From the NCBI GenBank assembly GCA_934148985.1, contig CAKPDO010000004.1:1-58664 (forward strand): a stretch of 58,664 nucleotides of DNA, in the 5' to 3' direction. Under the pieces are notes generated by a model, which worked only from the letters and a program-made list of their open reading frames with translations, was not told where the DNA came from and searched no databases. This document shows positions 2,512-48,985 of this stretch, one piece after another. The position numbers and the translations under genes are program-made. The stretch's first letter is position 1; each line of letters opens with the position of its first letter. The stretch is from an uncultured Clostridia bacterium. GTDB lineage: Bacteria; Bacillota; Clostridia; TANB77; CAG-508.

Positions 2512-2731
2512 ATATTATATCGTGAGGAGTAATATTTTATAACAAAATGGTCTTTTTCGTTTTGTTGATATTTAGCTATGTATAGCTGAGTAAGAGAACA
2601 TATTACTTATATTATTAAAAAAGAGAAAGGAGAGTTCCCTATCTGCGCCTCACACAGACAGCTTAGTTTTAACAACTGGGGACAAGATGACTCAAAAAGA
2701 GTGGACTTGTATGGAACATTGAAAAAATAAT

Positions 2732-3823
2732 ATGACACAGAACACAACGCAGATTGCTCAGGCAATTGTAAAGGCACTCGATGACAATTTCGTATTCGTT
2801 GACGATGTAAAGGCAATTTTGCCTTTAGCATTTGTTGGCGGAAAGAATGTAATTCTTTTCGGACCTGGCGGACATGCTAAGTCCAAAATGCTGGAGAAAG
2901 TCATTGAAGCACTTGATGCTAAAGATGAAACCTTTGTCCAGTTTTTTGGAGAAGGTATGGATGAGGCGCGCATTTATGGTGGGCTGAATTTCGAAAAGCT
3001 CGAAAAAGAGCACGTTTTGGAGTATTATCCAGAACGTAGTTTCCTCAATTATCGCATAGCGATTTTTGAAGAGCTTTTCGACGCACCCGCTAACGTTCTG
3101 TTGGCTCTCAAAGATGTTCTTACATCTAAAGAGCTGAGAAACGGAGCACAGCGGTTCCCTATGCGTACAGAGGTAATTGTTTGCCTCACAAATAAGGAGC
3201 CAGCTGAAATTGCTGACTTAGGTCCAGCAGCTGAAGCACTTATTGAGAGATTCCCTTTGCAGCTAAATGTAAAATGGGATAGCTATGACAAGGCTGCTTA
3301 TGAGGCTTTGTTCAAAAAGACTTGCCAGAAAATGACAGGACCAAGTATGACAAAGTTTCAGGGCATCTTAGCAGAGGTCTTGGCAAACGCGACAGCATCC
3401 GGAAACTTTGTTTCCCCACGTACTGCAGTACATGCCTTTCAGGTATGCCAGACTGCGGCAATGGTCGCAGGACGCGACGTGGTAGCTAAGGAGGACTTGG
3501 TTAATCTTCGTTTCCTTCCTGGACTCGAAGTATTAGCAAAATCTCTCCAAGCTGACATCGAAGCAGCAATGGAGAGAGAGAAGGGTGAAAAGGCTCTTGC
3601 TGGTTATAAAACAGAGTATAGCGCTCTGTATGAAACCATGGAAGGTGAGCATCGTCCAATTCAGCTACTCCAAGTCAGCAAAAAGGCTACAGAACTTCTG
3701 GATCGAGTATCCACATTAAAAGTTCCAGACAGCCTTGTGTCTGAAAGAAAGGAGCTGAGAAACAAAGTGTCAGATTTGAGTGCTGAAGCCCAGACTAAGG
3801 CTCTCAATTTGACAAGAATTTAA
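2732..3823 (+). CDS. MoxR/RavA-like AAA+ ATPase (363 aa)
   Basis: Walker A GPGGHAKS (the GxPGxAK[ST] form typical of MoxR/RavA) and a Walker B-like IAIFEELFDAPANVLLALKDVLTSKE that aligns with RavA VFLDEIWKAgpaiLNTLL. GC-richer codon usage than the backbone. Contains an in-frame CGG (3152) read as Arg. Confidence 0.8.
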   Translation: MTQNTTQIAQAIVKALDDNFVFVDDVKAILPLAFVGGKNVILFGPGGHAKSKMLEKVIEALDAKDETFVQFFGEGMDEARIYGGLNFEKLEKEHVLEYYPERSFLNYRIAIFEELFDAPANVLLALKDVLTSKELRNGAQRFPMRTEVIVCLTNKEPAEIADLGPAAEALIERFPLQLNVKWDSYDKAAYEALFKKTCQKMTGPSMTKFQGILAEVLANATASGNFVSPRTAVHAFQVCQTAAMVAGRDVVAKEDLVNLRFLPGLEVLAKSLQADIEAAMEREKGEKALAGYKTEYSALYETMEGEHRPIQLLQVSKKATELLDRVSTLKVPDSLVSERKELRNKVSDLSAEAQTKALNLTRI

Positions 3824-3907
3824 GCCGAAAAAAAGAAAGGAGGCTCCTCGGGGAAATCAAGTCTTTGTACTTGCATTTCTCTCTGGCACAACTAGGAGTG
3901 AGATGAT

Positions 3908-5254
3908 GTGTTCAGCATGTACTTACTAGAGGAAAATAGCATGGAAATATTTAGAACTACAACAGAGGGCTATCTTGCTCCCTCTAGGGAAGAAATGCGA
4001 GAGGCTGCTGAAAGAGTAGGACTACGGTCATATTCTAGAGATTTAGCCACAGATTTGGCTAATCTGGCAGCTGGAGGAAGGGTTAATCCACCTTCTAAAT
4101 ACTCAGATGCAGTAATGCAGAGAGTGGTAGAAAGGTTGGAAAAACCCAATGGCTATGGTGAATGGAAACTATCCGATGGTAATTGGACCAAGGAAAAGAC
4201 CAAAATTGTGGCAGATCGCCATAAAAGCCAAATGGCATACCACCAGAATGTCTGTGATTTTCTATCTGAGATAGATATGAGCAGATTTGAAGGTGAAACG
4301 CCTTTGGAACAGGCGATGAACTGCTTGAAACTCCTTTCAAAGATGAAAGGGGGAAATGGTGGCGGCGAAGATGGCGAACCGTTACCTATTTTTCAGGATG
4401 GTTCTCCTGAAGGAGTAGCACATCAGCTTCATGACAGTATCGATAGTGTTGATACACTTTCTGAAACTGAAAAAGAACTGATGGGTGAAACTCCTGAAAT
4501 GTCCAAGCGAGAAATCGCAGAGGACATGATGGGGGATAAATCCATTTGGTTATCAATTTCGCGCCAGTTGGATAGTTTGTCCAAAATGCAGGTGCGAAAG
4601 TGTAAGAAGCAAGAAGCAGATCCAAATGGAGAAGAGGTAATAACTCGCTCTATTAACGGATTTGATGAGCTTTCAAAGCTTTCAAAATCTGAGTGGGCAC
4701 ACTATCAGACTAACCGCTCTTACTTTTGGTATAGAGTGGCTAGTAAGCAGGCGAGAGTTCGAGAAAGAGTGGTCAATATTGAAAAAAAGCAATTGCTTTT
4801 TATCATCGTTGATTGCTCCGGTTCAATGGATTCGGGAAAACGCATTGCAAAAGCATGTGGAATTCTAATGAACCGCCTGAAAGCGGTCATCACCGGAGAA
4901 GCAGAGTTATATTTCTCTTTTTTTGACACTGAACTTCTTGAAGTTTATAGTGTCAAAACTCCAGAAGAAGCTAAGTCTTTGATGGAAACTTTGAGAAATA
5001 AAAACTTTTCCGGAGGTTCTACAAGCATTGATAGTGCTATGAAGCAGGCCAAAGCAGAAATCGATAAGATTATTGCAGAAGGTTCTACTTATAGACCAGA
5101 GCTTGTGGTAATCACGGATGGCGATGACAGTATTTCTTCAACAGCAAAAGATTTTGCTGGTACGAAAGTACACGCTTTTGTGGTTGAAGAAAGTAATACT
5201 ATGTTAACTGACCTTGCTAAGGCAACTGGTGGGGTTGGCATAAATAAGTTCTGA
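3908..5254 (+). CDS. ViaA-like protein with C-terminal von Willebrand factor A (vWA) domain (448 aa)
   Basis: MIDAS motif DCSGSM in LLFIIVDCSGSMDSGKR, and later VVITDGDD. The N-terminal ~290 aa are unassigned. GTG 3908 lies 9 nt after AGGAG; an alternative ATG is at 3941. Adjacent to the MoxR-like ATPase, the classic AAA+/vWA pairing. Confidence 0.8.
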   Translation: MFSMYLLEENSMEIFRTTTEGYLAPSREEMREAAERVGLRSYSRDLATDLANLAAGGRVNPPSKYSDAVMQRVVERLEKPNGYGEWKLSDGNWTKEKTKIVADRHKSQMAYHQNVCDFLSEIDMSRFEGETPLEQAMNCLKLLSKMKGGNGGGEDGEPLPIFQDGSPEGVAHQLHDSIDSVDTLSETEKELMGETPEMSKREIAEDMMGDKSIWLSISRQLDSLSKMQVRKCKKQEADPNGEEVITRSINGFDELSKLSKSEWAHYQTNRSYFWYRVASKQARVRERVVNIEKKQLLFIIVDCSGSMDSGKRIAKACGILMNRLKAVITGEAELYFSFFDTELLEVYSVKTPEEAKSLMETLRNKNFSGGSTSIDSAMKQAKAEIDKIIAEGSTYRPELVVITDGDDSISSTAKDFAGTKVHAFVVEESNTMLTDLAKATGGVGINKF

Positions 5255-5344
5255 AAAAGAAAGGAGGAGCTTCCAATAATTAATATTCTTACGAATCGAC
5301 GTGAGCATATAGAACGGAAAAATTTTAGATTTTTAAGTTGCTAT

Positions 5345-5959
5345 ATGGGAAGCACAGAAAAAATGAACAGCAACAGAAAAAACAATGGCAGCAGCAACAA
5401 TAGTTACCCTTTCATGCCTTGGACCTATAAGTATGAGCTTACAGGCCATGAACAGAAGAAATTGACAAGAGAGGGATTGGTTTTCCTTGGAAGAACATTA
5501 GATGGTGTGCCGGTTTATGACCGGTTAAATAGTCATTTTGTCGACCATGGATTTTCAAGTGAAACCATGAAGTCAGCACTATCAAAAATTACACAGGTTT
5601 CCAATTTTGAGAAACATGTCGTAAAATTTGACAGAGTTGTCGGGGAAACCACCTGTGTCAAAGTCGGTGAAAACGACAAAGTAATAATGGTGGTTCGAAA
5701 AAGACGCCAAGGGCCTACTCCAATGGTCATTGGCAGAAAACCGGAGCCGTGTGCTTCTGTGGTAATTATCCTCAAAAAAGCAAGTGATGATGAAGGTGAA
5801 TACTTCATTTTAATCACGGCTTTTGTTGGGGAAAACTCGGAACCGGAACCGTGGGATAAGCAGCTGATCCCAGGATCTAAAGAGCATGCCAAAGCTGTGA
5901 AGTTTTGGAAAAGCCATGCACTCCTGTATGATGAGGAGGTGATTGATTACATCGTATAA
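5345..5959 (+). CDS. Hypothetical protein (204 aa), third gene of the AAA+/vWA island
   Basis: Long ORF with island-like GC and no recognisable motif. Weak SD, so the start is uncertain (alternative ATG 5363). Confidence 0.55.
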   Translation: MGSTEKMNSNRKNNGSSNNSYPFMPWTYKYELTGHEQKKLTREGLVFLGRTLDGVPVYDRLNSHFVDHGFSSETMKSALSKITQVSNFEKHVVKFDRVVGETTCVKVGENDKVIMVVRKRRQGPTPMVIGRKPEPCASVVIILKKASDDEGEYFILITAFVGENSEPEPWDKQLIPGSKEHAKAVKFWKSHALLYDEEVIDYIV

Positions 5960-5998
5960 ATGTAACAACCACAAAACAGAAAGGAGGTTTAGCAGCAT

Positions 5999-6496
5999 AT
6001 GTCTGTTCTGCTTGAAGGGAAAACCTTTATAAGGTTTTTCAAATTAGATCCAAAAAGGGAAACAGATGGATTGTCAGACGAAGCTATATTTAAGTGGCTT
6101 CTCTGGCACCATACGGAAATAACCGAAGCCTTACGAGAGTGGGCTAAGGGTAAATATCCAGATGCGCCCGAAAATTATAAAAATAGCTTTGCAAGCCTTA
6201 TAGCTTGTTTGGCTACAGGGGCATATGGAGGATACCCTACGGAAAACTCCCAAAAAGAGAGGTATGCAGAACATAAAGTCTATGATTTTTATAGGAATAT
6301 GTTAGGTATACTGAAAAAGGAGGAGATGACAATTGCAATAATATATTTTGTTGCAAGTCATTTACTCCAAAAGTCCCCATTAGAGGAGGATACTGAAGAA
6401 AAACTTCAAGAGGCAATAAGGCTTCTTGAAGTATCTAAGAGCAGTTTCAAGTCTAAGCAGATTGCAAAGGCAAGAAAATTGCTTGAAGAAATTTAA
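5999..6496 (+). CDS. Hypothetical helical protein (165 aa), fourth gene of the island
   Basis: ORF preceded by GAAAGGAGG (5976-5984). No recognisable motif. Confidence 0.55.
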   Translation: MSVLLEGKTFIRFFKLDPKRETDGLSDEAIFKWLLWHHTEITEALREWAKGKYPDAPENYKNSFASLIACLATGAYGGYPTENSQKERYAEHKVYDFYRNMLGILKKEEMTIAIIYFVASHLLQKSPLEEDTEEKLQEAIRLLEVSKSSFKSKQIAKARKLLEEI

Positions 6497-12295: not shown

Positions 12296-12325
12296 GGGAC
12301 CAAAAAGAACCGACCCCAATGGGTC
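12296..12325 (+). repeat. Dispersed intergenic repeat unit (AAAAAGAACCGGTCCCAAT family)
   Basis: GGGACCAAAAAGAACCGACCCCAATGGGTC, about 25 nt upstream of the SD of the 12354 gene. Confidence 0.8.
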
Positions 12326-12353
12326 AAATGAGTCAAAGAAAGGAAGATAAAAA

Positions 12354-12926: not shown

Positions 12927-13157
12927 ATGAAGCAAAAATATAACCCAGAAATTTTAGAAAAATGTTTACCTCCATATTTAGAAAATGATTTAAAAAATTT
13001 AAAAGAAGGACTGAAAAATAATGTTAGTTACATAGATTGTCTTATAGATGAACTTCAGGGTTCAGTTAACAGTGCTTGGGTTGATGGAGATATTTCAGAT
13101 GAACAATGTGACTATTTATATAAAAAATATATCAGAATGGAGAAAGAAAATGATTGA
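12927..13157 (+). CDS. Small acidic protein (76 aa), overlaps the start of the HipA-like kinase gene
   Basis: The ORF ends 8 nt inside the kinase ORF (ATG 13150 / TGA 13155-13157). No HTH recognised. Confidence 0.5.
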   Translation: MKQKYNPEILEKCLPPYLENDLKNLKEGLKNNVSYIDCLIDELQGSVNSAWVDGDISDEQCDYLYKKYIRMEKEND

Positions 13158-14046
13158 CTTTACAGAATGTGAGAAAAATAATTTTAAATATTATGGTGGA
13201 AAAAATGGTGGAAAGATATGTATTGTATATCAAGAAAATGACTATATGTTAAAATTTCCAGCAATAAATGAGGGAATATCTGAACATGGATATTCAAATA
13301 GTTGTATATCTGAATATATTGCTTGTAATATTTTGAAAACATTAGGTCTAAATGTGCAAGAAACAATTCTTGGAAGATATAGAATTAATGGAGAAGAAAA
13401 GATTGTTGTTGCATGTAAAGATTTTACTACAAATGGAACTATATTAAAACAATTTGCCGAATTTAAAAATAGTCAAATTGAAACATCGAAAAATGGTTAT
13501 GGAACAGAACTAAGCGAAGTAATAGAAACTATAGAAAATCAAAGCATATATGATGGAAAGAAATTATTAGCTTTCTTTTGGGATATGTTTATTGCCGATA
13601 GTTTAGTAGGAAATTTTGACAGACATAATGGAAATTGGGGTTTTTTAATAAATGAAAGTCTAAGAAGAATAGAGATTGCTCCAATTTATGATTGTGCATC
13701 ATGTCTATATCCGCAGCTTACTGATGAAAGAATTGCTGAAATTATAGATAATGACAATGAAATGGAAGCTAGAGTATATATTTTTCCAACTTCAGCTCTA
13801 AAATATAATGACAAAAAAATAAATTATTTTTCATGGATTTCAGGACTAGAAAATGAAGAGTGTAATCAGGCTCTTTTAAGGATTTTTCCAAGGATAGATT
13901 TTGAAAAAATAAATGTAATTATTGACGAAACTCCTTGTATTTCAAACATTAGAAAAGCTTTTTATAAGAAAATATTGAAAATGAGATATGAAATGATATT
14001 AAAAGTTAGTTATGAAATGCTTATTCAAAAGGAAAATAATTTTTAG
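13150..14046 (+). CDS. HipA-like serine/threonine kinase (single-domain, ~298 aa)
   Basis: HipA_C catalytic signature VGNFDRHNGNWGF (compare GNxDxHxKN) and IAPIYDCAS (compare LAPxYD). The ORF-track start at 13048 is an upstream extension overlapping the 76-aa ORF; ATG 13150 is preferred. Confidence 0.7.
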   Translation: MIDFTECEKNNFKYYGGKNGGKICIVYQENDYMLKFPAINEGISEHGYSNSCISEYIACNILKTLGLNVQETILGRYRINGEEKIVVACKDFTTNGTILKQFAEFKNSQIETSKNGYGTELSEVIETIENQSIYDGKKLLAFFWDMFIADSLVGNFDRHNGNWGFLINESLRRIEIAPIYDCASCLYPQLTDERIAEIIDNDNEMEARVYIFPTSALKYNDKKINYFSWISGLENEECNQALLRIFPRIDFEKINVIIDETPCISNIRKAFYKKILKMRYEMILKVSYEMLIQKENNF

Positions 14047-14073
14047 TCCCCAAAAAGAATCGGTACCAGAAGG
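14047..14073 (+). repeat. Degenerate unit of the dispersed repeat
   Basis: TCCCCAAAAAGAATCGGTACCAGAAGG, immediately after the kinase stop and upstream of the SD of the 14093 gene. Confidence 0.6.
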
Positions 14074-14092
14074 ATAGAAAGGAAACCCAAAA

Positions 14093-15691: not shown

Positions 15692-15707
15692 AAATGTTTG
15701 CAAAAGT

Positions 15708-15775
15708 ACCCAAAAAGAACCGGTCCCAATGGGTCGATACCCAAAAAGAACCGGTCCCAATGGGTCAAAAAGAAC
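15708..15775 (+). repeat. Two perfect tandem units (31-nt period) plus a partial unit of the dispersed repeat
   Basis: ACCCAAAAAGAACCGGTCCCAATGGGTC twice (15708-15735, 15739-15766), then AAAAAGAAC. Lies just upstream of the polA SD. Confidence 0.9.
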
Positions 15776-15790: not shown

Positions 15791-18524
15791 GTGAAAAAGA
15801 AACTTCTATTAATAGACGGAAATAGTATAATGAATAGAGCATTTTATGGAATAATGGGAAGTAAAATGTTAATGACAAATGATGGTAAATACACAAATGC
15901 AGTATATGGTTTTTTGGCAATATTATTTAAAAATTTGGAAGACCTAAATCCTGAATATATAGCAGTATCATTTGATTTAAAAGCTAAAACAGCAAGACAT
16001 AAGTTATATGAGGGGTATAAAGCAAATCGTCATGGGATGCCAGATGAACTAGCAGATCAAATGCCTGTTATAAAAGATATTTTAAGAGCAATGAATATTG
16101 ATATTGTAGAGAAAGAGGGCTATGAGGGAGACGATATTTTAGGAACATTAAGTAAATTTGGAGAAGCACAAGGACTAGATGTAGTAATACTTTCAGGAGA
16201 TAGGGATACATTTCAACTTGCAAGTGATAATATCACAATTAGAATTCCAAGAACTAAGCAGGGAAAAACAGAAGTAGATGATTATAATAGACAAAAAGTA
16301 TTGGAAGAATATGGTGTAGAGCCAAAGTCATTAATAGAAGTAAAAGGATTACAAGGAGATACATCAGATAATATTCCAGGTGTTTCTGGAATTGGGCCTA
16401 AAACAGCAATAAATCTTGTAAAGAAATATGGTACAATTGAAAATTTATATAAACAAATTGATGCCGGAACAGATGATTTAAAAGGAAAGCAAAAAGAAGC
16501 TATTATAAATAATAAAGATATGGCTTTTATTTCTAGGACACTTGGCGAAATAGATGTAAATGTACCACTTGACGATACTCTAGACACTTTAAAAACTGAA
16601 GAATGGGATAAGGAAAAAGTTTTAGAATTATTTAAAGTTTGCAATTTTAAAAAGTATATAGAAAGATTTAATTTAGATGGACAAGGTGTAGAAAATAATA
16701 GTGAGAGTAAAATTGATTTAAAAAATCTATTTAAAATAAATTCTGAAATATCAATTAATGAGATAGAAGAAAAAATTAATAAATTGAAAAAAATAGTTTT
16801 TTATTTAGGATTAGAAGAAAATCAAAATAGTGAAAATATAATAAAGCAAGATATAATATCTATATCAATTTATAATTCTGAAGAAAAAGAAGTTTATTAT
16901 ATAAAAAAAACAGAACATAAAGATGAATTTTATGACTTTTTAAAGCGAATTTTTGAAGATGGAGAGATAGAAAAATTTGGATATGAATTAGGTAGAGTTT
17001 ATATCTTATTAAAACAAATAGGAATTAATGTAAGAAATTTAAAATATGATATAACAGTTGCAAGTTATATATTAGACCCAACTGAGGGAAAATATGTAAT
17101 AGACAATTTAATAGAAAAATACTTGAATTTGAATATAAATGAATACCTTGAAATTAATGGGGCAAATGAAGAAATGAAGCAAATTACAATGTTTGATATT
17201 AAAGAAAATGGAACTGATAGTTTAAAATATAAAATATCATTTTATGCATATGCTATATATGAATTATCTGAAGCGTTGACAGAAAAATTAAAAGAAATAG
17301 AGGCAATTGAATTATTTAAAAATATAGATATGCCAACAGTTGAAGTTTTAGCAAATATGCAATGGAATGGAATGCATATTGAGGAAAATAAGCTAGTAGA
17401 ATTTGGAAATAACCTAAAAGGTGGAATTGACATATTAACATCAGAAATATATAATTTAGCTGGAGGAGAGTTTAATATAAATTCGCCAAAACAATTAGGT
17501 GAAGTTTTATTTGAAAAATTAGGATTACCATCAAAAAAGAAAACGAAAAATGGATATTCTACATCAGAAGATATTTTAGAAAAATTATTAAATGAACATC
17601 CAATAATCGAAAAAATATTAGAATATAGAAAGCTTTGCAAGTTAAATTCAACATATGTTGAGGGAATGAGGCCTTATATAAATCCTAAAACAAACAGGAT
17701 ACATTCATTTTTCCATCAAACAATAACAGCTACAGGAAGAATAAGTTCAACAGAACCAAATCTTCAAAATATTCCTACAAGAATGGAATTGGGAAAACAA
17801 TTAAGAAAAGTATTTGTTCCAGATGAGGGAAAGATATATATAGATGCAGATTATTCACAAATAGAGCTAAGAGTATTAGCACACATGTCAAAAGATAGGC
17901 ATATGATAGATGCATTTGTAAATGGAGAAGACATCCACAAACAAGCAGCATCAAAAGTGCTTCATAAACCAATAGAAGAAGTAACTAAAGAAGAAAGAAG
18001 CAGTGCAAAAGCGGTCAATTTTGGTATAGTTTATGGAATTAGTGACTTCGGCCTAGCAGCTCAACTTCGGAATTAGCAGGAAAGAGGCAAAGGCATATAT
18101 TGAGCAATATTTAGAGGAATATTCGGGTGTAAATATGTATATGCAAAATATTGTTGAAACGGCCAAGGAAAATGGCTATTCAGCTACTATGTTTGGAAGA
18201 AGAAGATATATAAAGGAATTATCATCAAATAATTATATGGTTAGGGAGTTTGGAAAACGTGCAGCAATGAATACTCCTATTCAGGGAACAGCAGCTGACA
18301 TAATGAAAATTGCGATGATAAAGGTTTATAATGAATTACAAAAACAGGGATTAAAGGCTAAAATTGTTTTACAAGTCCATGATGAAATGATGATTGAGGC
18401 TCCTATCGAAGAAGCTGAAAAAGTGGAACAAATTTTAAAAAGTAATATGGAGTCAGCAGCAAAACTTGATGTGCCTTTGGTAGCTGAGGTTTCTAAAGCT
18501 GATAGCTGGTATGATTGTAAGTAG
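15791..18524 (+). CDS. polA: DNA polymerase I, interrupted by a +1 break at in-frame CGG 18068
   Basis: 5'-nuclease domain (LLLIDGNSIMNRAFYG), a 3'-5' exo-like region and pol motifs (DYSQIELRVLAH, QVHDEMMIE). GTG 15791 follows AAAGGAGAAAGCA. The upstream frame ends ..AAQL-CGG-AAT-TAG; skipping the C gives AAQLGISRKEAKAYIEQYLEEYSGV, continuous with ORF 18135-18524. Confidence 0.9.
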
Positions 18525-18528
18525 GAAT

Positions 18529-18616
18529 TTGTTCTTTTGGGACCGGGTCTTTTTGGTACAATGTTCTTTTGAAACTGATTCTTTGATGGAAAGAAAGAAC
18601 CGATTCAAAAGGTGCA
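18529..18616. repeat. Cluster of the dispersed repeat (one inverted unit plus degenerate units)
   Basis: TGTTCTTTTGGGACCGGGTCTTTTTGGTAC is the reverse complement of GTACCAAAAAGACCCGGTCCCAAAAGAACA. It is followed by AAAGAACCGATTCAAAAGGTGC. Confidence 0.75.
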
Positions 18617-20597: not shown

Positions 20598-20685
20598 TTC
20601 CCATTGGGACCGTATCATTTCGCAAAAAAACTGTACCAACGGAAAATGCTCATTTTTATTCACAAAAAAGAACCAGCCCCAATAC
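20598..20685. repeat. Degenerate dispersed-repeat cluster upstream of the ATPase gene
   Basis: TTTCCCATTGGGACCGTATC (inverted type) and CACAAAAAAGAACCAGCCCCAATAC (forward type). Confidence 0.6.
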
Positions 20686-20765
20686 AAAATTTTTGCATAA
20701 AAAATCTCTCAAAAGCATATATAAAAATAGGACAAAGTCCAAAAAACGAAAGGAGAGATAGAAAT

Positions 20766-30418: not shown

Positions 30419-30490
30419 AATATTTTTATAAATCCATTGATATTTTTTAATATTTATAATAAAATATGAACGAAAGAAAGGGGGATACAA

Positions 30491-32436
30491 ATGAACAAAA
30501 CAAAGAAAATACTGATAGTTCTAATGTTTTTTGGAATATTTATAATACTTGGAAACACAAAGAGTAATGCAGGAAGTCTATATCTAAACAATCTTGATTT
30601 TGATGTACAGATAAATCAAGATGGAAGTATGAATGTAACTGAAACTTGGGACATTTCGGTAGAAGAAACAAACACACTATTTAAAACATTCAAAACAGAT
30701 TCAAGCAAATATTCATCAATATCAAATGTGCAAGTAGTAGAAATTACAGAGGGAACTAAAAAAAATTTTAGTCAAGTTAATTCTATTATGTATCATGTAA
30801 CAAAAGATTGTTATTATGGACTAAAAAATAGTCAGGGAAACTTCGAAATTGCATGGGGCGTAGGAATGGATGATACAAGAGGAACAAAAAAATATCAAAT
30901 ATCATATAAGGTAAATGATGTAATTGCTAAATATCAAGACTATGCTGAATTATATTGGCAATTTATTGGAAGTGATTTTAGGATAAATTGTAATAAAATC
31001 ACTGGAAAAATTTTACTACCTCGAAATGCAACATCTACAGATGAAATAAAAGTTTGGGGACATACTGAGGGATTAAATGGTGAAATTTATGCGACATCTA
31101 CAAATACAATAGAATTTGAGTTAAATAAATTTTATGCCGGAAGATATGTTGAAGTAAGAACATTATTTCCAAAAGAGATGATAAGCTCGACAAAAAGGAT
31201 ATATTCAAAAAATATATTAGATGAAGTTATATCAGAAGAAACTGTATGGGCAGATGAAGCAAATGCAAGAAGGGAAGAAGCAGAAAATGTCGAAAAAATG
31301 ATATTAGCTATATTTGGAATAGGTGTAGCTATAATAGATGTGTTACTTATTAGAAAATCTATGAAAATTTTTAAAGAGGCATCAGAAAAAACAAAGATTA
31401 TGCCATCAATGGAAATGGAGTATTATAGGGAACTACCAAGAAAAAATGCAACACCGGCTCAAGCTGTATACGAACAAGGCGAAATATTAAGCTCAGTTTC
31501 TACAAATCAAATGGGAAATATTTTTTCAGCAACTTTGCTTGATTTAAGTTTAAAAAAATATATAGAATTTGTTGAAAATCCTGGAGATAAGAAAAATATT
31601 ATTATAAATATTCTAAAAAAAGGCCAGGACTCAGACCTTGAAAAAACTGAAAAAATAGTATTTAGGTACATATTAAGAGCTTCTAAAGATGATACACAGG
31701 TAACTGTTAAAGAGATTGAAAAATATATGAAGAAACATTCATCAGGACTAATAGGAATAAAGGAAGATATTGAAAGTTCTACAATAGACGAATTAAAAAA
31801 GAACAAACTTTATGATGAAAAAGGAGCTGAAGAAAAAAGAAAATTCAGCTTAAAAGTTACAATGAATATGTCTTTGGTACTTATCGAAATATTTATCGGA
31901 ATTAGTTTGATAACAACGTTATCTTATTTTGTTAATGAGAAAATATTGATGGTTGGAGTTATAAGTGTAATAGCACTTACAATATTAAAAACAATAGCAC
32001 TTATGAAGTATAATAAAAAAATAACAGTATATACACAAAGCGGTACAGATGAAAAACAAATGTGGATAGGACTAAAAAAATATATGGAAGATTTCTCTAT
32101 GTTAAATGAAAGAGAAATTCCAGAAATTGCAATATGGGAACATTTTTTAGTATATGCAACTGCATTTGGAATTGCTGACAAGGTAATAAAACAATTAAAA
32201 GCTGTATATAAACAACTAGGAAGAAGCTTTGAATTTGATGAATCTTATGGTTATATGTATTTTATGACAAATAACAATTTCTCATCAAGCTTTACAAATT
32301 CAGTGAGTTCAGCATTTTCATCAGCATATTCATCAAACTATTCATCTTCACACTCGTCAGGCTTTGGAGGCGGCGGAGGCTTCTCTGGAGGCGGAGGAGG
32401 AGGCCGGTGGCCGGAGGTGGCGGCGGCGGTCGATAA
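30491..32436 (+). CDS. DUF2207-type membrane protein with poly-Gly tail; two +1 breaks at CGG 32405 and 32412
   Basis: Signal peptide, a large extracytoplasmic domain, TM helices and a Ser/Gly tail. Reading GGC-C|GGT-GGC-C|GGA-GGT-GGC-GGC-GGC-GGT-CGA-TAA gives an uninterrupted Gly run ending at 32436. Without the shifts, the ORF runs into the repeat cluster to 32515. Confidence 0.65.
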
Positions 32437-32440
32437 TTGG

Positions 32441-32566
32441 GGTACATTGCATTGGGTACATTGGGACCGGTTCTTTTTGGGTAATTTTCCCCATTGGGAC
32501 CGGTTCTTTTTGTGACAGACCCAAAAAGACCCAAAAAGACCCAAAAAGAACCGGTCCATTTGTGCC
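32441..32566. repeat. Largest dispersed-repeat cluster: two inverted units facing three forward (two of them truncated) units
   Basis: CATTGGGACCGGTTCTTTTTGGG and CCCCATTGGGACCGGTTCTTTTTGTGAC, then GACCCAAAAA x3 ending AAAAAGAACCGGTCC. GGACCGGTTCTTTTT and AAAAAGAACCGGTCC can form a perfect 15-bp stem. Confidence 0.9.
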
Positions 32567-32589
32567 AAAAAAAGAAAAGAGGTAAAAAA

Positions 32590-41214: not shown

Positions 41215-41255
41215 AAGAAACCGAATTTTTTCGCAAAAAGAAACGGTCCCAACCA
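41215..41255 (+). repeat. Dispersed repeat unit(s) upstream of fabD
   Basis: GAAGAAACCGAATTTTTTCGCAAAAAGAAACGGTCCCAACC, about 12 nt before the AGGAGG SD. Confidence 0.7.
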
Positions 41256-41272
41256 GAATATAGGAGGATTTT

Positions 41273-45100: not shown

Positions 45101-45117
45101 ATGCTTATTTGTGAATG

Positions 45118-45177
45118 TCCAAAAAGGACCCGGTCCCAAACGAACAATGTTCACAAAAGAACTGGTCCCAAATGAAC
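45118..45177 (+). repeat. Two-unit dispersed repeat (composite also seen at 47085 and 48911)
   Basis: TCCAAAAAGGACCCGGTCCCAAACGAACAATGTTCACAAAAGAACTGGTCCCAAATGAAC. Confidence 0.85.
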
Positions 45178-45194
45178 ATGAGAAGGAGAGAAAG

Positions 45195-45635: not shown

Positions 45636-45709
45636 GGGACCAAAAAGAACCGACCCTAGTGGGGCAAATGGGACCAAGAAGAACCGACCCCAATGTCCCA
45701 AATGGTCCC
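45636..45709 (+). repeat. Two-unit dispersed repeat
   Basis: GGGACCAAAAAGAACCGACCCTAGTGGGGCAAATGGGACCAAGAAGAACCGACCCCAATGTCCCAAATGGTCCC. Confidence 0.85.
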
Positions 45710-45728: not shown

Positions 45729-47070
45729 ATGAATAAAATATTGATAGCTAATAGAGGCGAAATAGCTGTTAGAATAATAAGAGCATGTAAAGAAATGAAT
45801 ATAAAAACAGTCGCAGTGTATTCAGAAGCAGACAAAGATAGTCTTCATACGCGTTTGGCAGATGAAGCAATATGCATAGGTCCGGCGAATTCTAATAAAA
45901 GTTATTTGAATTATAAAAATATAATAGAAGCGGCCTATATAACTGGAAGTGATAGTATACATCCCGGTTTTGGATTTCTTTCTGAAAATAGTCAATTTGC
46001 AAAAATATGTGAAGAATCGAATATTAAATTTATTGGCCCATCATATGAGTTAATAAAACTTATGGGAAATAAGTCAAATGCTAAAGAAATAATGGAAAAG
46101 GCAGGAATTCCGGTAGTTCCTGGCTCTAAAGGAAGCATAAAAAGTATAAATGATGCAAAAAAAATAGCAAAAGAGATAGGATATCCAATAATGCTTAAAG
46201 CAGCAGCTGGTGGAGGCGGAAAAGGAATTCGTATTGTAAATGATGAAAGTGAATTGGAAAATAGCTATAATGTTGTAAAACAGGAAGCAATGATTTCTTT
46301 TAAAGATGACGAAATTTATATGGAGAAGTTTATTCAAAATCCTAGACATATTGAAATTCAAATTTTAGCAGATGAACATGGAAATGTAATTCATTTAGGC
46401 GAAAGGGATTGTACTATTCAAAGAAGAAATCAAAAAGTCATTGAAGAAACTCGGTTCAAATGCTATTGATGAAAAATTGAGAGAAAAAATGGGAGATGTG
46501 GCAATTAGAGCAGCCAAAAAAGTGGGATACACAAATTGTGGTACAATTGAATTTTTGGTAGATAAGGATAAAAATTTTTATTTTATGGAGATGAATACAA
46601 GAATTCAAGTTGAACATGGAATTACAGAGGAAAGAACAGGAATTGACATTGTTAAAGAGCAAATTAGGATTGCAGCAGGAGAAAAAATGAAAATTAAGCA
46701 AAAAGATGTAGTATTTAATGGACATGTAATAGAATGCAGGATAAATGCGGAAAATCCGGACAAAAATTTTAGACCTTGCCCAGGAAAAATAACAGGACTT
46801 ATTTTGCCAGGAGGAAACGGAATTAGAGTTGATACATTTGTGTATGATGGTTATACTATTCCACCAAATTATGATTCCATGATTGCTAAAATAATTGCTC
46901 ACGGAAAAACAAGAAATGAAGCTATAAGTAAAATGAAAAGGGCTTTGGAAGAAACTGTAATTGATGGAATAGATACTAATATTGATTTTTTGTTTAAAAT
47001 TATTAGAAATTCTAATTTTATTAGAGGAAAATATGATACTTCATTTATTGAAAAGGAAATTTTGAAATAA
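45729..47070 (+). CDS. accC: Biotin carboxylase, interrupted by a +1 break at in-frame CGG 46452
   Basis: The upstream frame reads ..[19 protein letters not shown]. Skipping the C gives [38 protein letters not shown], with exactly the spacing of other AccC proteins, then MNTRIQVEH. Confidence 0.9.
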
Positions 47071-47084
47071 AAGACTAAAATTGT

Positions 47085-47142
47085 ACTAAAAAGACCCGGT
47101 CTCAAAAGAACATGTTCGCAAAAGAACTGGTCCAAAAGGTGC
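47085..47142 (+). repeat. Two-unit dispersed repeat
   Basis: ACTAAAAAGACCCGGTCTCAAAAGAACATGTTCGCAAAAGAACTGGTCCAAAAGGTGC. Confidence 0.85.
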
Positions 47143-47173
47143 AATTGTGCAATGAGGCAGAAAGGAAGGAAAA

Positions 47174-48110
47174 ATGCTAGTTGATAAAATCAAAAAAAGA
47201 GAACCAACAGCAAAAAAGAATGTAAATAAAGTTGATATACAAATTGGTAAGTGGGTAAAATGCGCCAAATGCAAAGAAATTTTATATAAAGAAGATGTAA
47301 AAGAAAATTTAAACATATGTCCAGTATGTGGAGCATATTTTAGAATGCATATAAATAGAAGAATTGAGAGCATAATTGATGATGGAACGTACAAAAGATT
47401 TGACCTAAATATTGATAATGTAAATCCATTAGAACTAGAAGATTATCCATCCAAGCTAGAAAAATTAAGACAAAAGACGAAGTTAGAAGAAGCTGTAGCT
47501 TGTGGAACTCGGTAAAATTGGTGGCAAAGATGTAGTAATATGTATAATGGATAGTGGTTTTCTAATGGGAAGCATGGGAACGGTTGTCGGTGAAAAGATA
47601 ACGTATGCGATTGAAAAGGCAATTGAATTAAAATATCCATTAATAATATTTACTGTATCTGGTGGAGCTAGAATGCAAGAAGGCATAATGTCCCTTATGC
47701 AAATGGCGAAAACTACAGCGGCAATTTTTAAGCTCAACAGAGCTGGCAATTTATATATTTCTGTTTTAACAGACCCTACTTATGGCGGAGTTACAGCATC
47801 ATTTGCAAGTATTGCTGATATTGTATTAAGTGAACCAGGTGCAATGATTGGTTTTGCAGGGCAACGAGTTATTGAACAAACTATAGGAGAGAAGTTACCA
47901 GAGGGATTTCAAACAGCAGAGTTTTTAATGGAACATGGCTTTATTGATAAGATTGTAGAAAGACAGGATTTGAAACAGGTTTTGGCAAAATTGATAGAAT
48001 TAAACCAAAGTAAAAAATGTCCCAAAGGGACCGGTTCTTTTTGTGGCAAAGATAAAATGAGTTTGGGCCTAAGTGTGAAAAGTACAAAAAAGACTCGGTA
48101 TTTTTGGTGA
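47174..48110 (+). CDS. accD: Acetyl-CoA carboxylase carboxyltransferase beta, +1 break at in-frame CGG 47510; 3' end ambiguous (may run into accA)
   Basis: Zn-ribbon [20 protein letters not shown]. The upstream frame ends ACT-CGG-TAA; skipping the C gives [33 protein letters not shown]. After the conserved end (..[13 protein letters not shown]) the frame stays open through a repeat unit to CGG 48096. Confidence 0.85.
48020..48109. repeat. One inverted and one forward (degenerate) repeat unit lying inside the accD/accA junction
   Basis: TCCCAAAGGGACCGGTTCTTTTTGTGGC (48020-48047) and GTACAAAAAAGACTCGGTATTTTTGGTG (48082-48109). Confidence 0.7.
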
Positions 48111-48915
48111 AACAGCATGGCAAAAAGTACAGATAGCAAGAGCAAATAATAGAAAAACATCATTAGATTATATAGAAAAAATATTTGATGAATTTATAGA
48201 ACTTCATGGGGATAGAAATTATAGAGATGATAAAGCAATGGTATGTGGACTAGCAAGAATTGGAACGCAAAGTTATACAGTAATTGCAGAGCAAAAAGGC
48301 AGAAATACCAAAGAAAATATTGAAAGAAACTTTGGAATGCCTAATCCTGAGAGTTATAGAAAAGCAATAAGATTTATGGAACAAGCTGAAAAATTTAATA
48401 GACCTATTATAACTTTTATTGATACAAAAGGAGCATATCCTGGAATTGGAGCAGAGGAAAGAGGTCAGGGAGAAGCTATAGCAAGTTCTATGCTTAAGAT
48501 GGCTGGATTAAAGGTTCCTATAATTTCAATTGTTATTGGGGAAGGCTCTAGTGGTGGAGCTTTGGCAATTGGAGTAGCAAATAAAGTATTTATGCTTGAA
48601 AATGCGGTTTATTCTATTTTGTCACCAGAGGGTTATGCAAGTATTTTGTGGAAGGATGCTTCAAGAACGGAAGAAGCGGCAGAAAAAATGAAACTTACAG
48701 CAAAAGACTTGTATGAACTAAAAGTTATTGATAAAATTATTGAAGAACCAAAAGATGGTGAGAATTTTGATTTATTAGTTGAAAATTTGAAAAATGAAAT
48801 AGTATTTAATATAAATGATTTAAATAATTTGACAAAAGAAAAAATAGTTGAAGATAGATATCAAAAGTTTAGAAAAATGGGGGAATACACGAGACTTGAA
48901 CAAAAAATGTCCTAA
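48057..48915 (+). CDS. accA: Acetyl-CoA carboxylase carboxyltransferase alpha; the only upstream ATG (48057) is in the accD frame and needs the +1 break at CGG 48096
   Basis: The conserved [39 protein letters not shown] lies upstream of the first in-frame ATG (48238) and has no start codon in its own frame after the stop at 48076-48078. Joining at ACT-C|GGT gives [24 protein letters not shown].. The core [23 protein letters not shown] is present. Confidence 0.8.
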
Positions 48916-48968
48916 AAAGACCCGGTCCCAAACGAACATGTTCACAAACGAACCGGTCCCAAATGAAC
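48911..48968 (+). repeat. Two-unit dispersed repeat overlapping the accA stop codon
   Basis: CCTAAAAAGACCCGGTCCCAAACGAACATGTTCACAAACGAACCGGTCCCAAATGAAC. Confidence 0.85.
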
Positions 48969-48985
48969 AAAGAAGGAGTGAAAAT

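What the first reader, a model, noticed from the sequence alone, without database searches (positions are those of the whole stretch)
15708..15775. Dense, previously unrecognised-looking ~25-nt dispersed intergenic repeat family (approx. CCAAAAAGAACCGGTCCCAATGGG)
Thirteen clusters with roughly 20+ recognisable units occur in 58 kb: 12296, 14047, 15708 (two perfect units, 31-nt period), 18529, 20598, 32441, 41215, 45118, 45636, 47085, 48020, 48911.

The units share an AAAAAGA(A/C)C(C/T)GGTCCCAA core containing the palindrome ACCGGT. A recurring two-unit composite, ...AAAAAGACCCGGTCCCAAACGAACATGTTCACAAA(A/C)GAAC(C/T)GGTCCCAAATGAAC, appears three times (45118, 47085, 48911).

They are confined to short intergenic gaps of the AT-rich backbone, including almost every gap of the fab/acc operon. 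They are mostly in the same orientation as the downstream gene and end 10-30 nt upstream of its Shine-Dalgarno. They are absent from the GC-richer patches.

They inflate several tracked ORFs (polA, ATPase, MYG1, fabZ, fabI, SLT) with artificial N-terminal extensions. Density, position and orientation suggest an RNA-level role rather than a classical transcription-factor operator; this is inference. Candidate roles are operon mRNA processing or stability, a translation-initiation standby site, or the binding site of an abundant protein, possibly a REP/BOX-like element. I do not recognise the sequence as a named repeat family.
Basis: seen in the sequence. Interest (0 to 1): 0.72.

Follow-up and report, generated by a model that had tools for sequence, protein, structure and literature searches.

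The report
REP-like palindromic repeats with cognate transposase
The repeat is real: it is a previously undescribed family of small hairpin-forming "junk" DNA repeats that fills the gaps between genes in a group of uncultured gut Clostridia, and it most likely spreads through a single-copy tyrosine (HUH) transposase whose gene is flanked by the same repeats in related genomes, so it belongs to a known kind of system and is not a new regulatory RNA.

Summary
The window holds 21 units of about 31 nt in 12 intergenic gaps (core AAAAAGAMCYGGTCCCAA: 18 matches against 0.18 expected by chance).

Each unit is a conserved 17-18-nt core flanked by a variable, covarying 7-bp inverted repeat. Units occur as:
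- 31-33-nt tandem arrays;
- inverted pairs, almost only in one polarity (TTGGGACCGGTTCTTTTT…AAAAAGAACCGGTCCCAA; 154 pairs against 8 in the opposite polarity).

The rare opposite polarity forms a hairpin followed by a U-run, like a terminator, and sits only at gene or operon ends.

The family is restricted to a clade of low-GC uncultured gut Clostridia. It is fixed within the species (no indels among 99.9% identical strains). Between sister species it turns over: of 66 orthologous gaps, 23 are filled in one species and empty in the other.

In related genomes a roughly 255-aa Y1/HUH transposase lies at a conserved position between hisS and mutS2. Its best structural match is E. coli RayT bound to a REP hairpin. 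On both sides it is flanked by that species' own variant of this repeat.

This is therefore a REP/REPIN-like ("TIRtron"/TIRYT-type) system, a new member of a known kind.

The parts
12296..12326 (+). Single unit, GAACCGACCCCAA variant, upstream of the small multidrug export gene
   Evidence: PWM score 27.8; covariance model 31 bits, E=1.3e-4
14046..14076 (+). Degenerate single unit that overlaps the stop codon of the HipA-like gene, upstream of the FAD oxidoreductase gene
   Evidence: PWM score 16.4; 3 mismatches to the core
15706..15767 (+). Two identical units in tandem with a 31-nt period, between the FAD oxidoreductase stop codon and the polA Shine-Dalgarno sequence (the stretch the finding names)
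   Evidence: Sequence; PWM score 33.3 for each; covariance model 48.5 and 33 bits
18531..18616 (.). Antisense unit (18531-18561) directly after the polA stop codon, plus a decayed sense unit (18586-18616) upstream of the SLT gene. The orthologous gap in L049 is empty (13 nt).
   Evidence: Covariance model 51.1 bits
20598..20689 (.). Decayed inverted pair: antisense 20598-20628, sense 20659-20689, upstream of the P-type ATPase gene
   Evidence: PWM scores 14.4 and 25.9
32455..32567 (.). Cluster of two antisense units and one sense unit, with a 10-nt GACCCAAAAA x3 microsatellite made of unit fragments. It folds as one long hairpin. The two antisense units are read as the C-terminal tail of the DUF2207 ORF.
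   Evidence: RNA fold -58 kcal/mol, z=-5.9
41229..41259 (+). Single unit, GAAACGGTCCCAA variant, upstream of fabD. The same variant flanks the transposase gene in L252.
45116..45178 (+). Two-unit direct composite upstream of fabZ
45636..45700 (+). Two units of the GAACCGACCC variant upstream of accC
47082..47143 (+). Two-unit direct composite upstream of accD. The orthologous gap is empty in L038 and L048.
48019..48049 (-). Antisense unit between accD and accA, read through by the accD ORF tail
48908..48969 (+). Two-unit direct composite between accA and fabI

Best explanation
The repeats are a lineage-specific family of miniature, non-autonomous palindromic DNA elements of the REP/REPIN kind. 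More precisely, they resemble the 'TIR repeats' of a TIRtron.

**Anatomy**
- The basic 31-nt unit is a conserved 17-18-nt core (AAAAAGAACCGGTCCCAA and variants) between two short arms. The arms vary in sequence but stay complementary.
- Two units in the inverted order TTGGGACCGGTTCTTTTT…AAAAAGAACCGGTCCCAA form a long perfect hairpin, like a REPIN.

**Proposed mechanism (inferred)**
- A single-copy, vertically inherited Y1/HUH tyrosine transposase (RAYT/TIRYT type) recognises these hairpins on single-stranded DNA. It then cuts and rejoins them, seeding new copies without target-site duplication.
- Local slippage or duplication then produces the 31-33-nt tandem arrays and the microsatellites made of unit fragments.
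- In a compact genome only the short gaps between a stop codon and the next Shine-Dalgarno sequence tolerate insertions, so the units pile up there.
- The inverted order that would make a hairpin followed by a U-run (a terminator) survives only at the ends of transcription units.

**Shown versus inferred**
- Shown: the anatomy, the covariation, the arrangement rules, the turnover between species, and the association of the transposase gene with the same repeats in related genomes.
- Inferred: that this enzyme actually mobilises the units, and that the window's own genome carries it.
For: **Family is real and clade-restricted**
- Enrichment is about 100-fold.
- Multi-copy hits occur only in low-GC uncultured gut Clostridia MAGs and gut metagenome contigs.

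**Palindromic unit**
- Nested Watson-Crick covariation links the flanks: G:C 149 / T:A 83 at one pair and A:T 79 / C:G 83 at another.
- It also holds in the 42 singleton units.
- On 130 units chosen without regard to their stems, 68% of cells are paired against 53% in shuffles (0 of 500 shuffles reach it). The covariation score is 0.351 against at most 0.155 for slid controls.

**Doublets**
- Inverted pairs in the '-+' order against the '+-' order: 63 to 5, and 91 to 3 in an independent set of 82 metagenome loci.
- Partners of a '-+' pair share the same arms in 43% of cases, against 10% for random pairs.

**Turnover**
- Of 66 orthologous gap pairs between species, 24 are both empty, 19 both filled and 23 filled in one and empty in the other. 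No target duplication is seen.
- Six conspecific assemblies are 99.85-99.99% identical with no indel over the aligned stretches, up to 21 kb.

**Cognate enzyme**
- L179 7155-7928 encodes a 257-aa protein that matches Pfam Y1_Tnp at E=1.1e-16. Its best NCBIfam model is REP_Tyr_transpos, E=4.7e-17.
- It shares the HUH motif and the Y-x3-NP motif with E. coli RayT.
- The AlphaFold model of its orthologue P0008 has pLDDT 91.3. Its best PDB match is 4ER8, RayT bound to a REP hairpin, E=3e-7, TM 0.73.
- The gene and five orthologues (56-81% identity) lie between hisS and mutS2. Each is flanked on both sides by that species' own variant of the repeat.
- One of these flanking variants is GAAACGGTCCCAA, which also occurs in the window at 41235.
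- A paralogue at 52% identity, at another locus, is flanked by an unrelated repeat. That fits enzyme-repeat specificity.

**Literature**
- REPINs are inverted REP doublets and singlets are their remnants (PMC3116915).
- TIRYT genes are flanked by inverted repeats with the motif GGGGWSAS, and some of these form dispersed families arranged as dimers or clusters (PMC3733652). The repeat here reads GGGGACGG, a 7 of 8 match.
Against: - The transposase gene is not in the window, and the window's genome is not in the genome collection. Its presence in this species is therefore untested.
- In the closest sister species the gene is flanked by the GAACCGTCCCCAA subtype, which has 0 copies in the window. 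The link to the window's GAACCGGTCCCAA subtype rests on L252 and on the relatedness of the subtypes.
- The NCBIfam score of 62 bits is below the curated cut-off of 80.
- Direct tandem arrays (94 adjacent pairs) are as common as inverted doublets. The arms vary more than the core. Both are atypical for classical REPs, in which the palindrome itself is conserved.
- No transposition intermediate or within-species insertion polymorphism was seen.
- The covariation could come from quasipalindrome template-switch correction, not from selection for a hairpin.
Confidence: 0.78

Rival explanations
1. The units are cis-acting RNA elements in 5' UTRs and intercistronic regions, kept by the host for mRNA processing or stability, or as a translation standby or enhancer site.
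For: - There is a modest excess of the sense orientation: 127 to 89 units, and 44 to 25 single-orientation clusters, p=0.03.
- Sense clusters end a tight 9-30 nt before the start codon. Antisense clusters sit directly after the stop codon. The pattern replicates in an independent set and the association has p of about 0.03.
- Inverted clusters fold very stably as RNA, -58 kcal/mol, z=-5.9.
Against: - Units are not conserved at orthologous gaps: 23 of 66 gap pairs are filled in one species and empty in the other, and filled pairs differ in number, orientation and subtype.
- 41% of units are antisense.
- There is no strand-specific G-U against A-C signal in the stems, p=0.19 and in the wrong direction.
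- Sense tandem arrays fold no better than shuffles.
- Rfam has no match.
- The positional pattern follows just as well from decay of one half of a '-+' doublet that spans the gap.
Confidence: 0.1
2. The units are remnants or miniature derivatives (MITEs) of a DDE-type insertion sequence. The 18-nt core would be its terminal inverted repeat.
For: The strong single polarity of inverted pairs, 154 to 8, looks like paired terminal inverted repeats. Some pairs enclose 20-60 nt of spacer.
Against: - No target-site duplication appears at filled against empty sites.
- The 1.15 Mb of clade sequence searched for Y1 transposases held only the single Y1 gene, and the 537-kb subset held no multi-copy transposase. 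DDE transposases were not searched for specifically.
- The gene that is flanked by the repeats is a Y1/HUH enzyme, not a DDE enzyme.
- Single units carry their own covarying hairpin arms.
Confidence: 0.04
3. The units are double-stranded binding sites for an abundant DNA-binding protein (a global regulator or nucleoid protein). They would be maintained by the host and not be mobile.
For: - The 17-nt core is conserved and contains the palindrome ACCGGT.
- The position is often between promoter and Shine-Dalgarno sequence, for example upstream of the transposase gene itself.
Against: - The arms covary instead of being conserved, which protein read-out of duplex DNA does not predict.
- Presence varies between orthologous gaps.
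- Units sit next to unrelated housekeeping genes.
Confidence: 0.05
4. The repeats are selfish or neutral in origin, but part of the family has been co-opted. Pairs in the '+-' order would serve as bidirectional intrinsic terminators, and '-+' hairpins as intercistronic punctuation.
For: - All 8 '+-' pairs lie in convergent gaps or directly after a stop codon, with at least 92 nt to the next start codon.
- Those examined (first set) fold at -22 to -55 kcal/mol and are followed by T-runs.
Against: - There are only 8 cases, and no transcript data.
- The polarity bias can also be inherited from the left-end/right-end architecture of the element (L253).
Confidence: 0.3

Closest known systems
REP/REPIN-RAYT systems (REPtrons) of Proteobacteria: E. 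coli REP/BIME with RayT, PDB 4ER8; Pseudomonas fluorescens REPINs (PMC3116915)
   Same: - Short extragenic palindromic units in high copy.
- Inverted doublets that form long hairpins, plus singlets and higher-order clusters.
- No target duplication seen.
- A single-copy, syntenic, vertically inherited Y1/HUH transposase whose gene is flanked by its cognate repeats.
- The fold is closest to RayT.
- Subtypes differ between species and track the enzyme.
   Different: - There is no GTAG (or terminal CGTC) tag.
- The conserved part is a 17-18-nt core and the short arms vary, whereas in classical REPs the palindrome itself is conserved.
- Direct tandem arrays with a 31-33-nt period are as common as inverted doublets.
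- The enzyme is about 90 aa longer, with a conserved helical C-terminal domain.
- The host is a low-GC, roughly 1.5-Mb uncultured Clostridia lineage.
TIRtrons/TIRYTs (Di Nocera et al. 2013, PMC3733652), corresponding to TnpA-Y1 subclass 2.1 (Quentin et al. 2018, PMC6006769) and RAYT Group 1 (Bertels et al. 2017, PMC5581495)
   Same: - A long Y1 protein with the Y-x3-NP motif and a C-terminal extension.
- The gene is bracketed by inverted repeats. L253 shows two units in one orientation, the gene, then two units in the other.
- The repeat carries GGGGACGG, a 7 of 8 match to the published GGGGWSAS motif.
- The repeats also occur as dispersed singles, dimers and clusters.
- Group 1 is reported in Clostridia.
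   Different: - Published TIR families are described as only 'moderately abundant' and present in few genomes. Quentin et al. found no REP-like sequences next to subclass 2.1 genes.
- Here the density is about 1 unit per 3 kb, which extrapolates to roughly 500 per genome.
- Similarity of the C-terminal domain to Bac_DnaA_C, HTH_23 or HTH_28 was not detected.
- Subclass membership was not tested against reference sequences.
IS200/IS605 elements and their miniature derivatives (PATEs)
   Same: - The Y1/HUH fold (IS608, IS200 and ISDra2 TnpA are the next-best matches).
- Hairpins at both ends.
- No target duplication.
- A miniature '-+' doublet would be the transposase-less derivative.
   Different: - The gene is single-copy and syntenic, not multi-copy.
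- The Y motif is Y-x3-NP, which is RAYT-like.
- There is no tnpB.
Other small dispersed repeats of Firmicutes (pneumococcal BOX/RUP/SPRITE, S. aureus STAR); cited from my own knowledge
   Same: GC-richer short intergenic repeats in an AT-rich genome, often in tandem and often within operons.
   Different: No sequence similarity. As far as I know, those families have no cognate Y1 transposase flanked by the repeat.

Membership tests
REP/REPIN-RAYT (REPtron) | Short (20-40 bp) imperfect palindromes, extragenic, in many copies | tested here: met
   - The 31-nt unit has covarying 7-bp arms.
- 228 of 271 units are intergenic in sequence that is 86% coding.
- The window holds 21 units in 58.7 kb.
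REP/REPIN-RAYT (REPtron) | Units organised as inverted doublets that fold into a long hairpin (REPIN) | tested here: met
   - 154 '-+' pairs.
- Partners share arms in 43% of pairs against 10% for random pairs.
- The cluster at 32440-32580 folds at -58 kcal/mol, z=-5.9.
- Direct tandem arrays are equally common, which is atypical.
REP/REPIN-RAYT (REPtron) | A Y1/HUH tyrosine transposase gene (RAYT) flanked by the genome's own repeat family | tested here: met
   - Met in related genomes: L179, L245-L253.
- The fold is closest to 4ER8.
- Not testable for the window's own genome, because the gene is not in the window.
REP/REPIN-RAYT (REPtron) | RAYT is single-copy and vertically inherited, like a housekeeping gene | tested here: met
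   - One hit in 1.15 Mb of clade sequence.
- Six orthologues at 56-94% identity all lie between hisS and mutS2.
- Whole-genome copy number was not counted.
REP/REPIN-RAYT (REPtron) | A GTAG (or CGTC) tetranucleotide tag at one end of the palindrome | tested here: not met
   - The unit consensus is aTGTnCc-AAAAAGAACCGGTCCCAA-TnGrACA, with no terminal GTAG or CGTC.
- CGTC occurs only inside the GAACCGTCCCC subtype.
REP/REPIN-RAYT (REPtron) | NCBIfam REP_Tyr_transpos model at or above its curated cut-off | tested here: not met
   It is the best-scoring model, but 62.2 bits is below the cut-off of 80.
TIRtron/TIRYT (TnpA-Y1 subclass 2.1) | A Y1 protein longer than RAYT, with the Y-x3-NP motif and a C-terminal HTH-like extension | tested here: inconclusive
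   - The protein is 254-257 aa, with invariant Y121, N125 and P126.
- It has a conserved, confidently modelled helical C-terminal domain of about 110 aa.
- That domain has no significant Pfam HTH or Bac_DnaA_C match.
- No reference subclass 2.1 sequence was compared.
TIRtron/TIRYT (TnpA-Y1 subclass 2.1) | The gene is bracketed by terminal inverted repeats carrying GGGGWSAS | tested here: met
   - L253 has two units in one orientation, the gene, then two in the other. The other loci have palindromic doublets on both sides.
- The motif reads GGGGACGG, a 7 of 8 match.
DDE-type MITE | Target-site duplication and a related full-length IS with a DDE transposase | tested here: not met
   - No duplication appears at filled against empty orthologous sites.
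- No multi-copy transposase occurs among the ORFs of the 537-kb first set. DDE transposases were not searched for specifically.
Curated RNA family (Rfam) | A match to a covariance model | tested here: not met
   0 hits at gathering thresholds in the whole window. Nothing falls on the repeats at E<=1 in 41.0-49.1 kb.
CRISPR array | Direct repeats separated by unique spacers of similar length, usually with cas genes | tested here: not met
   - The start-to-start period of 31-33 nt equals the unit length, so there are no spacers.
- Arrays hold 1-4 units and are dispersed over many gaps.

The most novel reading that the evidence does not exclude
This may be the first abundant, REP-like repeat population tied to a long, C-terminally extended Y1 transposase (TIRYT/subclass 2.1-like), a group reported to lack REP-like partners.

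Its recognition logic would also differ from E. coli RayT. The enzyme, perhaps through its extra helical domain, would read a conserved 17-nt sequence presented either as a hairpin loop (single unit) or as a hairpin stem (inverted doublet), and only the pairing of the arms would matter.

In a roughly 1.5-Mb reduced genome, the population would in addition have been co-opted as gene punctuation: '+-' pairs as bidirectional terminators, and '-+' hairpins between the stop codon and the Shine-Dalgarno sequence.
Probability: 0.25. Interest if true: 0.65.

Novelty: new member of a known kind. Interest (0 to 1): 0.5.

Why it matters
**Gene calling.** The units lack stop codons in some frames. They inflate ORFs at both ends and create spurious small ORFs.

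**Assembly.** Many homologues of the transposase gene sit on contigs of about 1 kb, which is what repeat-induced assembly breaks would produce.

**Evolution.**
- The finding extends domesticated Y1-transposase/repeat systems, studied almost only in Proteobacteria, to an uncultured, small-genome gut Clostridia lineage, at unusually high density.
- It gives a counter-example to the report that long, C-terminally extended TnpA-Y1 proteins have no REP-like partners (PMC6006769).

**Mechanism.** The covarying arms around a conserved core, and the 154 to 8 polarity rule, provide a clean natural data set for asking what a RAYT-like enzyme recognises. They also show how selection against accidental terminators shapes repeat architecture.

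Tried and rejected
- **Rfam.** The gathering-threshold search of the whole window and the lenient search of 41-49.1 kb found nothing on the repeats. One chance-level HrrF hit lies inside accA.
- **Full-text search for the core sequence.** 0 papers.
- **RNA-structure reading.**
  - The wobble test (G-T against A-C mismatches in sense and antisense units) showed no RNA signature.
  - Folding of sense tandem arrays was not better than shuffles.
- **Target-site duplication.** Comparison of filled and empty orthologous gaps found none, and the boundaries are fuzzy.
- **Multi-copy transposase.** An all-against-all comparison of ORFs in the sampled loci found none.
- **First search for a RayT homologue.** A search of the first 537 kb with E. 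coli RayT found nothing. It succeeded only after the metagenome scan doubled the sample.
- **PDB sequence search with the transposase.** No hit. The fold search was needed.
- **Pfam on the C-terminal domain.** Nothing significant.
- **Viral contigs.** 9 contigs each hold an exact match. Only one (L120) looks like this clade, so there is no evidence of a phage link.
- **Cluster look-up to tie the transposase to named MAGs.** It gave no usable accession numbers.
- **CRISPR, operator and DDE-MITE readings.** Considered and rejected; see the membership tests.

Full report
**1. The observation**

The stated stretch, 15708-15775, holds two identical units with a 31-nt period. The core AAAAAGAMCYGGTCCCAA has 18 matches with at most 3 mismatches in the window, against 0.18 expected; 0 of 100 shuffles reach that number. 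Repeat finding groups the copies into families and confirms that the two-unit composite recurs at 45114, 47080 and 48906.

A position-weight scan gives 21 credible units in 12 intergenic gaps between 12.3 and 49.0 kb. A covariance model built later finds 16 of them at E<0.2. The window is about 30% GC, with nearly all genes on the + strand.

- polA, an SLT-domain gene, a P-type ATPase and a MYG1-family gene;
- a fab/acc operon (fabD, fabG, fabF, accB, fabZ, accC, accD, accA, fabI).

**2. Where else the repeat occurs**

A scan of one genome per species found multi-copy matches only in a set of uncultured low-GC gut Clostridia MAGs from human, Hadza, goat and rabbit samples. One of them is a complete 1.55-Mb chromosome. 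Other phyla gave single, chance-level hits.

The window's own genome is not in that collection. The closest loci are 82-88% identical. Exactly the same species occurs in six independent gut metagenome assemblies, at 99.85-99.99% identity and with no indel over the aligned stretches, up to 21 kb. A metagenome scan added 82 further loci from the clade.

**3. Anatomy of the unit**

I aligned 271 units from 537 kb on the core. The flanks have a weak consensus (aTGTnCc … TnGrACA) but strong nested Watson-Crick covariation:
- position -5 with +23: G:C 149, T:A 83;
- position -1 with +19: A:T 79, C:G 83;
- position -4 with +22: T:A 130, G:C 33, A:T 12, C:G 10.

The covariation also holds in the 42 singleton units. 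On 130 units chosen only by their core, 68% of cells pair against 53% in shuffles (0 of 500 shuffles reach it). The covariation score is 0.351 against at most 0.155 when the partner column is slid. A unit is therefore a 7-bp (sometimes 9-bp) variable stem around a conserved 17-nt centre.

Two results bear on whether the pairing acts in RNA:
- **Weak folding.** Sense tandem arrays fold no better than shuffles as RNA, z from -2.6 to +0.3.
- **No wobble signature.** G-T against A-C mismatch counts do not differ between units sense and antisense to genes, p=0.19.

So nothing singles out RNA as the level at which pairing matters. A DNA-level palindrome fits at least as well.

**4. Arrangement rules**

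Adjacent units are of two kinds:
- direct repeats with a 31-33-nt period;
- inverted pairs, almost always in the order TTGGGACCGGTTCTTTTT…AAAAAGAACCGGTCCCAA ('-+').

The counts are 63 '-+' against 5 '+-' in the first data set and 91 against 3 in the independent metagenome set. Partners of a '-+' pair have the same arms in 43% of cases, against 10% for random pairs from one genome. Some pairs are perfect 38-nt palindromes.

The rare '+-' pairs in the first data set fold at -22 to -55 kcal/mol and are followed by T-runs. All 8 '+-' pairs lie in convergent gaps or directly after a stop codon, with at least 92 nt to the next start codon. That is where an intrinsic terminator is tolerated.

Relative to genes:
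- clusters of antisense units followed by sense units span the gap;
- sense-only clusters end a median of 19-22 nt before the start codon;
- antisense-only clusters begin a median of 7-10 nt after the stop codon (association p of about 0.03).

The simplest account is that '-+' doublets insert between a stop codon and the next Shine-Dalgarno sequence, and that singletons are what remains when one half decays. Bertels and Rainey proposed the same for REP singlets (PMC3116915).

Overall orientation bias is modest: 127 sense to 89 antisense units.

**5. Evolutionary behaviour**

Among 66 orthologous gap pairs between species, 24 are empty in both, 19 filled in both and 23 filled in only one. Filled pairs often differ in number, orientation and subtype. 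Two examples from the window:
- The roughly 100-nt gap upstream of the SLT gene is 13 nt and unit-free in L049.
- The gap upstream of accD is empty in L038 and L048, and holds a different arrangement in L008.

No target-site duplication is visible at the boundaries. Unit fragments also expand as microsatellites: GACCCAAAAA x3 at about 32520-32550 in the window, and CCAAATGGT repeated in L052. This is the behaviour of a mobile or rapidly turning-over sequence population, not of a conserved regulatory site.

**6. The cognate enzyme**

A search of the enlarged sample with E. coli RayT hit one ORF, L179 7155-7928. L179 is the locus with the most units.

Properties of the 257-aa protein:
- It matches Pfam Y1_Tnp at E=1.1e-16. 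Its best NCBIfam model is REP_Tyr_transpos at E=4.7e-17, although the score of 62 bits is below the curated 80.
- It shares the HUH histidines and the Y-x3-N-P motif with RayT.
- It has a conserved extra C-terminal domain of about 110 aa with no significant Pfam match.
- An AlphaFold model of the orthologue P0008 is confident, pLDDT 91.3. Its best PDB match is 4ER8, 'REP-associated tyrosine transposase bound to a REP hairpin' (E=3e-7, target TM 0.73), ahead of IS608, IS200 and ISDra2 TnpA.

The gene is bracketed by the same palindromic doublet. One copy lies between its promoter-like TTGACA…TATAAT and its Shine-Dalgarno sequence, and one lies directly after its stop codon.

The family has 225 members at E<=1e-20, nearly all about 255 aa. 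Five further orthologues (81-56% identity) all lie between hisS and mutS2, and each is flanked on both sides by its own species' variant of the repeat:

| Locus | Flanking repeat |
|---|---|
| L248, L250, L251 | GAACCGTCCCCAA doublets |
| L245-L247 | GAAACGTCCCCAA nested doublets |
| L252 | GAAACGGTCCCAA doublets, the variant found in the window at 41235 |
| L253 | two units in one orientation, the gene, then two in the other |

A 52%-identical paralogue at another locus is flanked by an unrelated repeat. This is the REPtron/TIRtron signature: one vertically inherited enzyme gene decorated by the repeat family that populates the genome.

**7. Comparison with the literature**

- REPINs are inverted REP doublets mobilised by single-copy RAYTs (PMC3116915, PMC5581495).
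- Di Nocera et al. (PMC3733652) described RAYT-like 'TIRYT' genes flanked by inverted repeats that share GGGGWSAS. Some of these repeats form dispersed families of singles, dimers and clusters. The repeat here reads GGGGACGG, a 7 of 8 match. That paper mentions no Firmicutes.
- Quentin et al. [quoted passage not shown] They report that no REP-like sequences were found next to those genes.
- The present system has the protein features of that group, although subclass membership was not tested against references. It nevertheless has an abundant partner repeat: about one unit per 3 kb in the window, which would be roughly 500 per genome if the window is representative. That figure is an extrapolation.

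**8. Verdict**

The family is not named or described anywhere I could search. The best explanation is a REP/REPIN-like (TIRtron-type) population mobilised by a cognate Y1/HUH transposase, shaped by slippage and by selection against terminators inside operons.

The RNA-regulatory reading is not excluded for individual copies, but it is not what the family as a whole looks like.

Remaining gaps:
- The enzyme gene has not been seen in the window's own genome.
- No enzyme activity or transposition intermediate has been shown.
- The role of the variable arms and of the C-terminal domain is inferred.

Noticed in passing
window 15791-18076 | 18135-18524 (polA); 45729-46469 | 46441-47070 (accC); 47174-47515 | 47502-48110 (accD); about 48986-49324 | 49266-49760 (fabI): Four housekeeping genes are each split into two ORFs in different frames.
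- The accC, accD and fabI splits are present in all the independent conspecific assemblies that cover them, so they are not sequencing errors.
- accC and fabI are intact in sister species.
- The accD split is shared with L008 and L038, and the polA split with L049. These are either old pseudogenisation or some form of recoding.
   Followed up: partly
window 30491-32515 and 47502-48110: The DUF2207 ORF and the accD ORF have no stop codon before the repeats. They read through antisense units, which adds tails such as …WGTLHWVHWDRFFLGNFPHWDRFFL.
   Followed up: partly
window 49841-51523 and 55393-57075 (upstream regions 49777-49829 and 55328-55380; a weaker copy at 30431-30483): Two 93%-identical paralogues encode an AAA-ATPase_like plus PD-(D/E)XK (PDDEXK_9) protein. 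They have a conserved upstream promoter-like region. A third related fragment lies at 53601-53692.
   Followed up: partly
window about 32519-32550; L052 about 4515-4745: Microsatellites built from unit fragments: GACCCAAAAA x3 in the window, and CCAAATGGT repeated many times in L052. The family evidently also grows by slippage.
   Followed up: no
L179 7030-7150; L248 2380-2500: The transposase gene has a near-consensus TTGACA-17 nt-TATAAT promoter-like site. The palindromic doublet lies between this site and the Shine-Dalgarno sequence, so the enzyme's own 5' leader would be its substrate hairpin. This may allow autoregulation.
   Followed up: no
L120 (IMGVR_UViG_3300045988_138308) 15-64: One low-GC (27%) viral contig carries a '-+' doublet at its very start. 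It may be a prophage boundary in a host of this clade.
   Followed up: no
window 2700-6000: A patch richer in GC (38-45% against about 30% elsewhere) has no units. Its origin was not examined.
   Followed up: no
window 13048-14046: A HipA_C-domain (toxin kinase-like) gene lies just upstream of a degenerate unit that overlaps its stop codon.
   Followed up: no
P0001-P0120: Many homologues of the transposase are known only from contigs of about 0.9-1.3 kb, roughly the gene alone. This is what flanking repeats that break short-read assemblies would produce.
   Followed up: no
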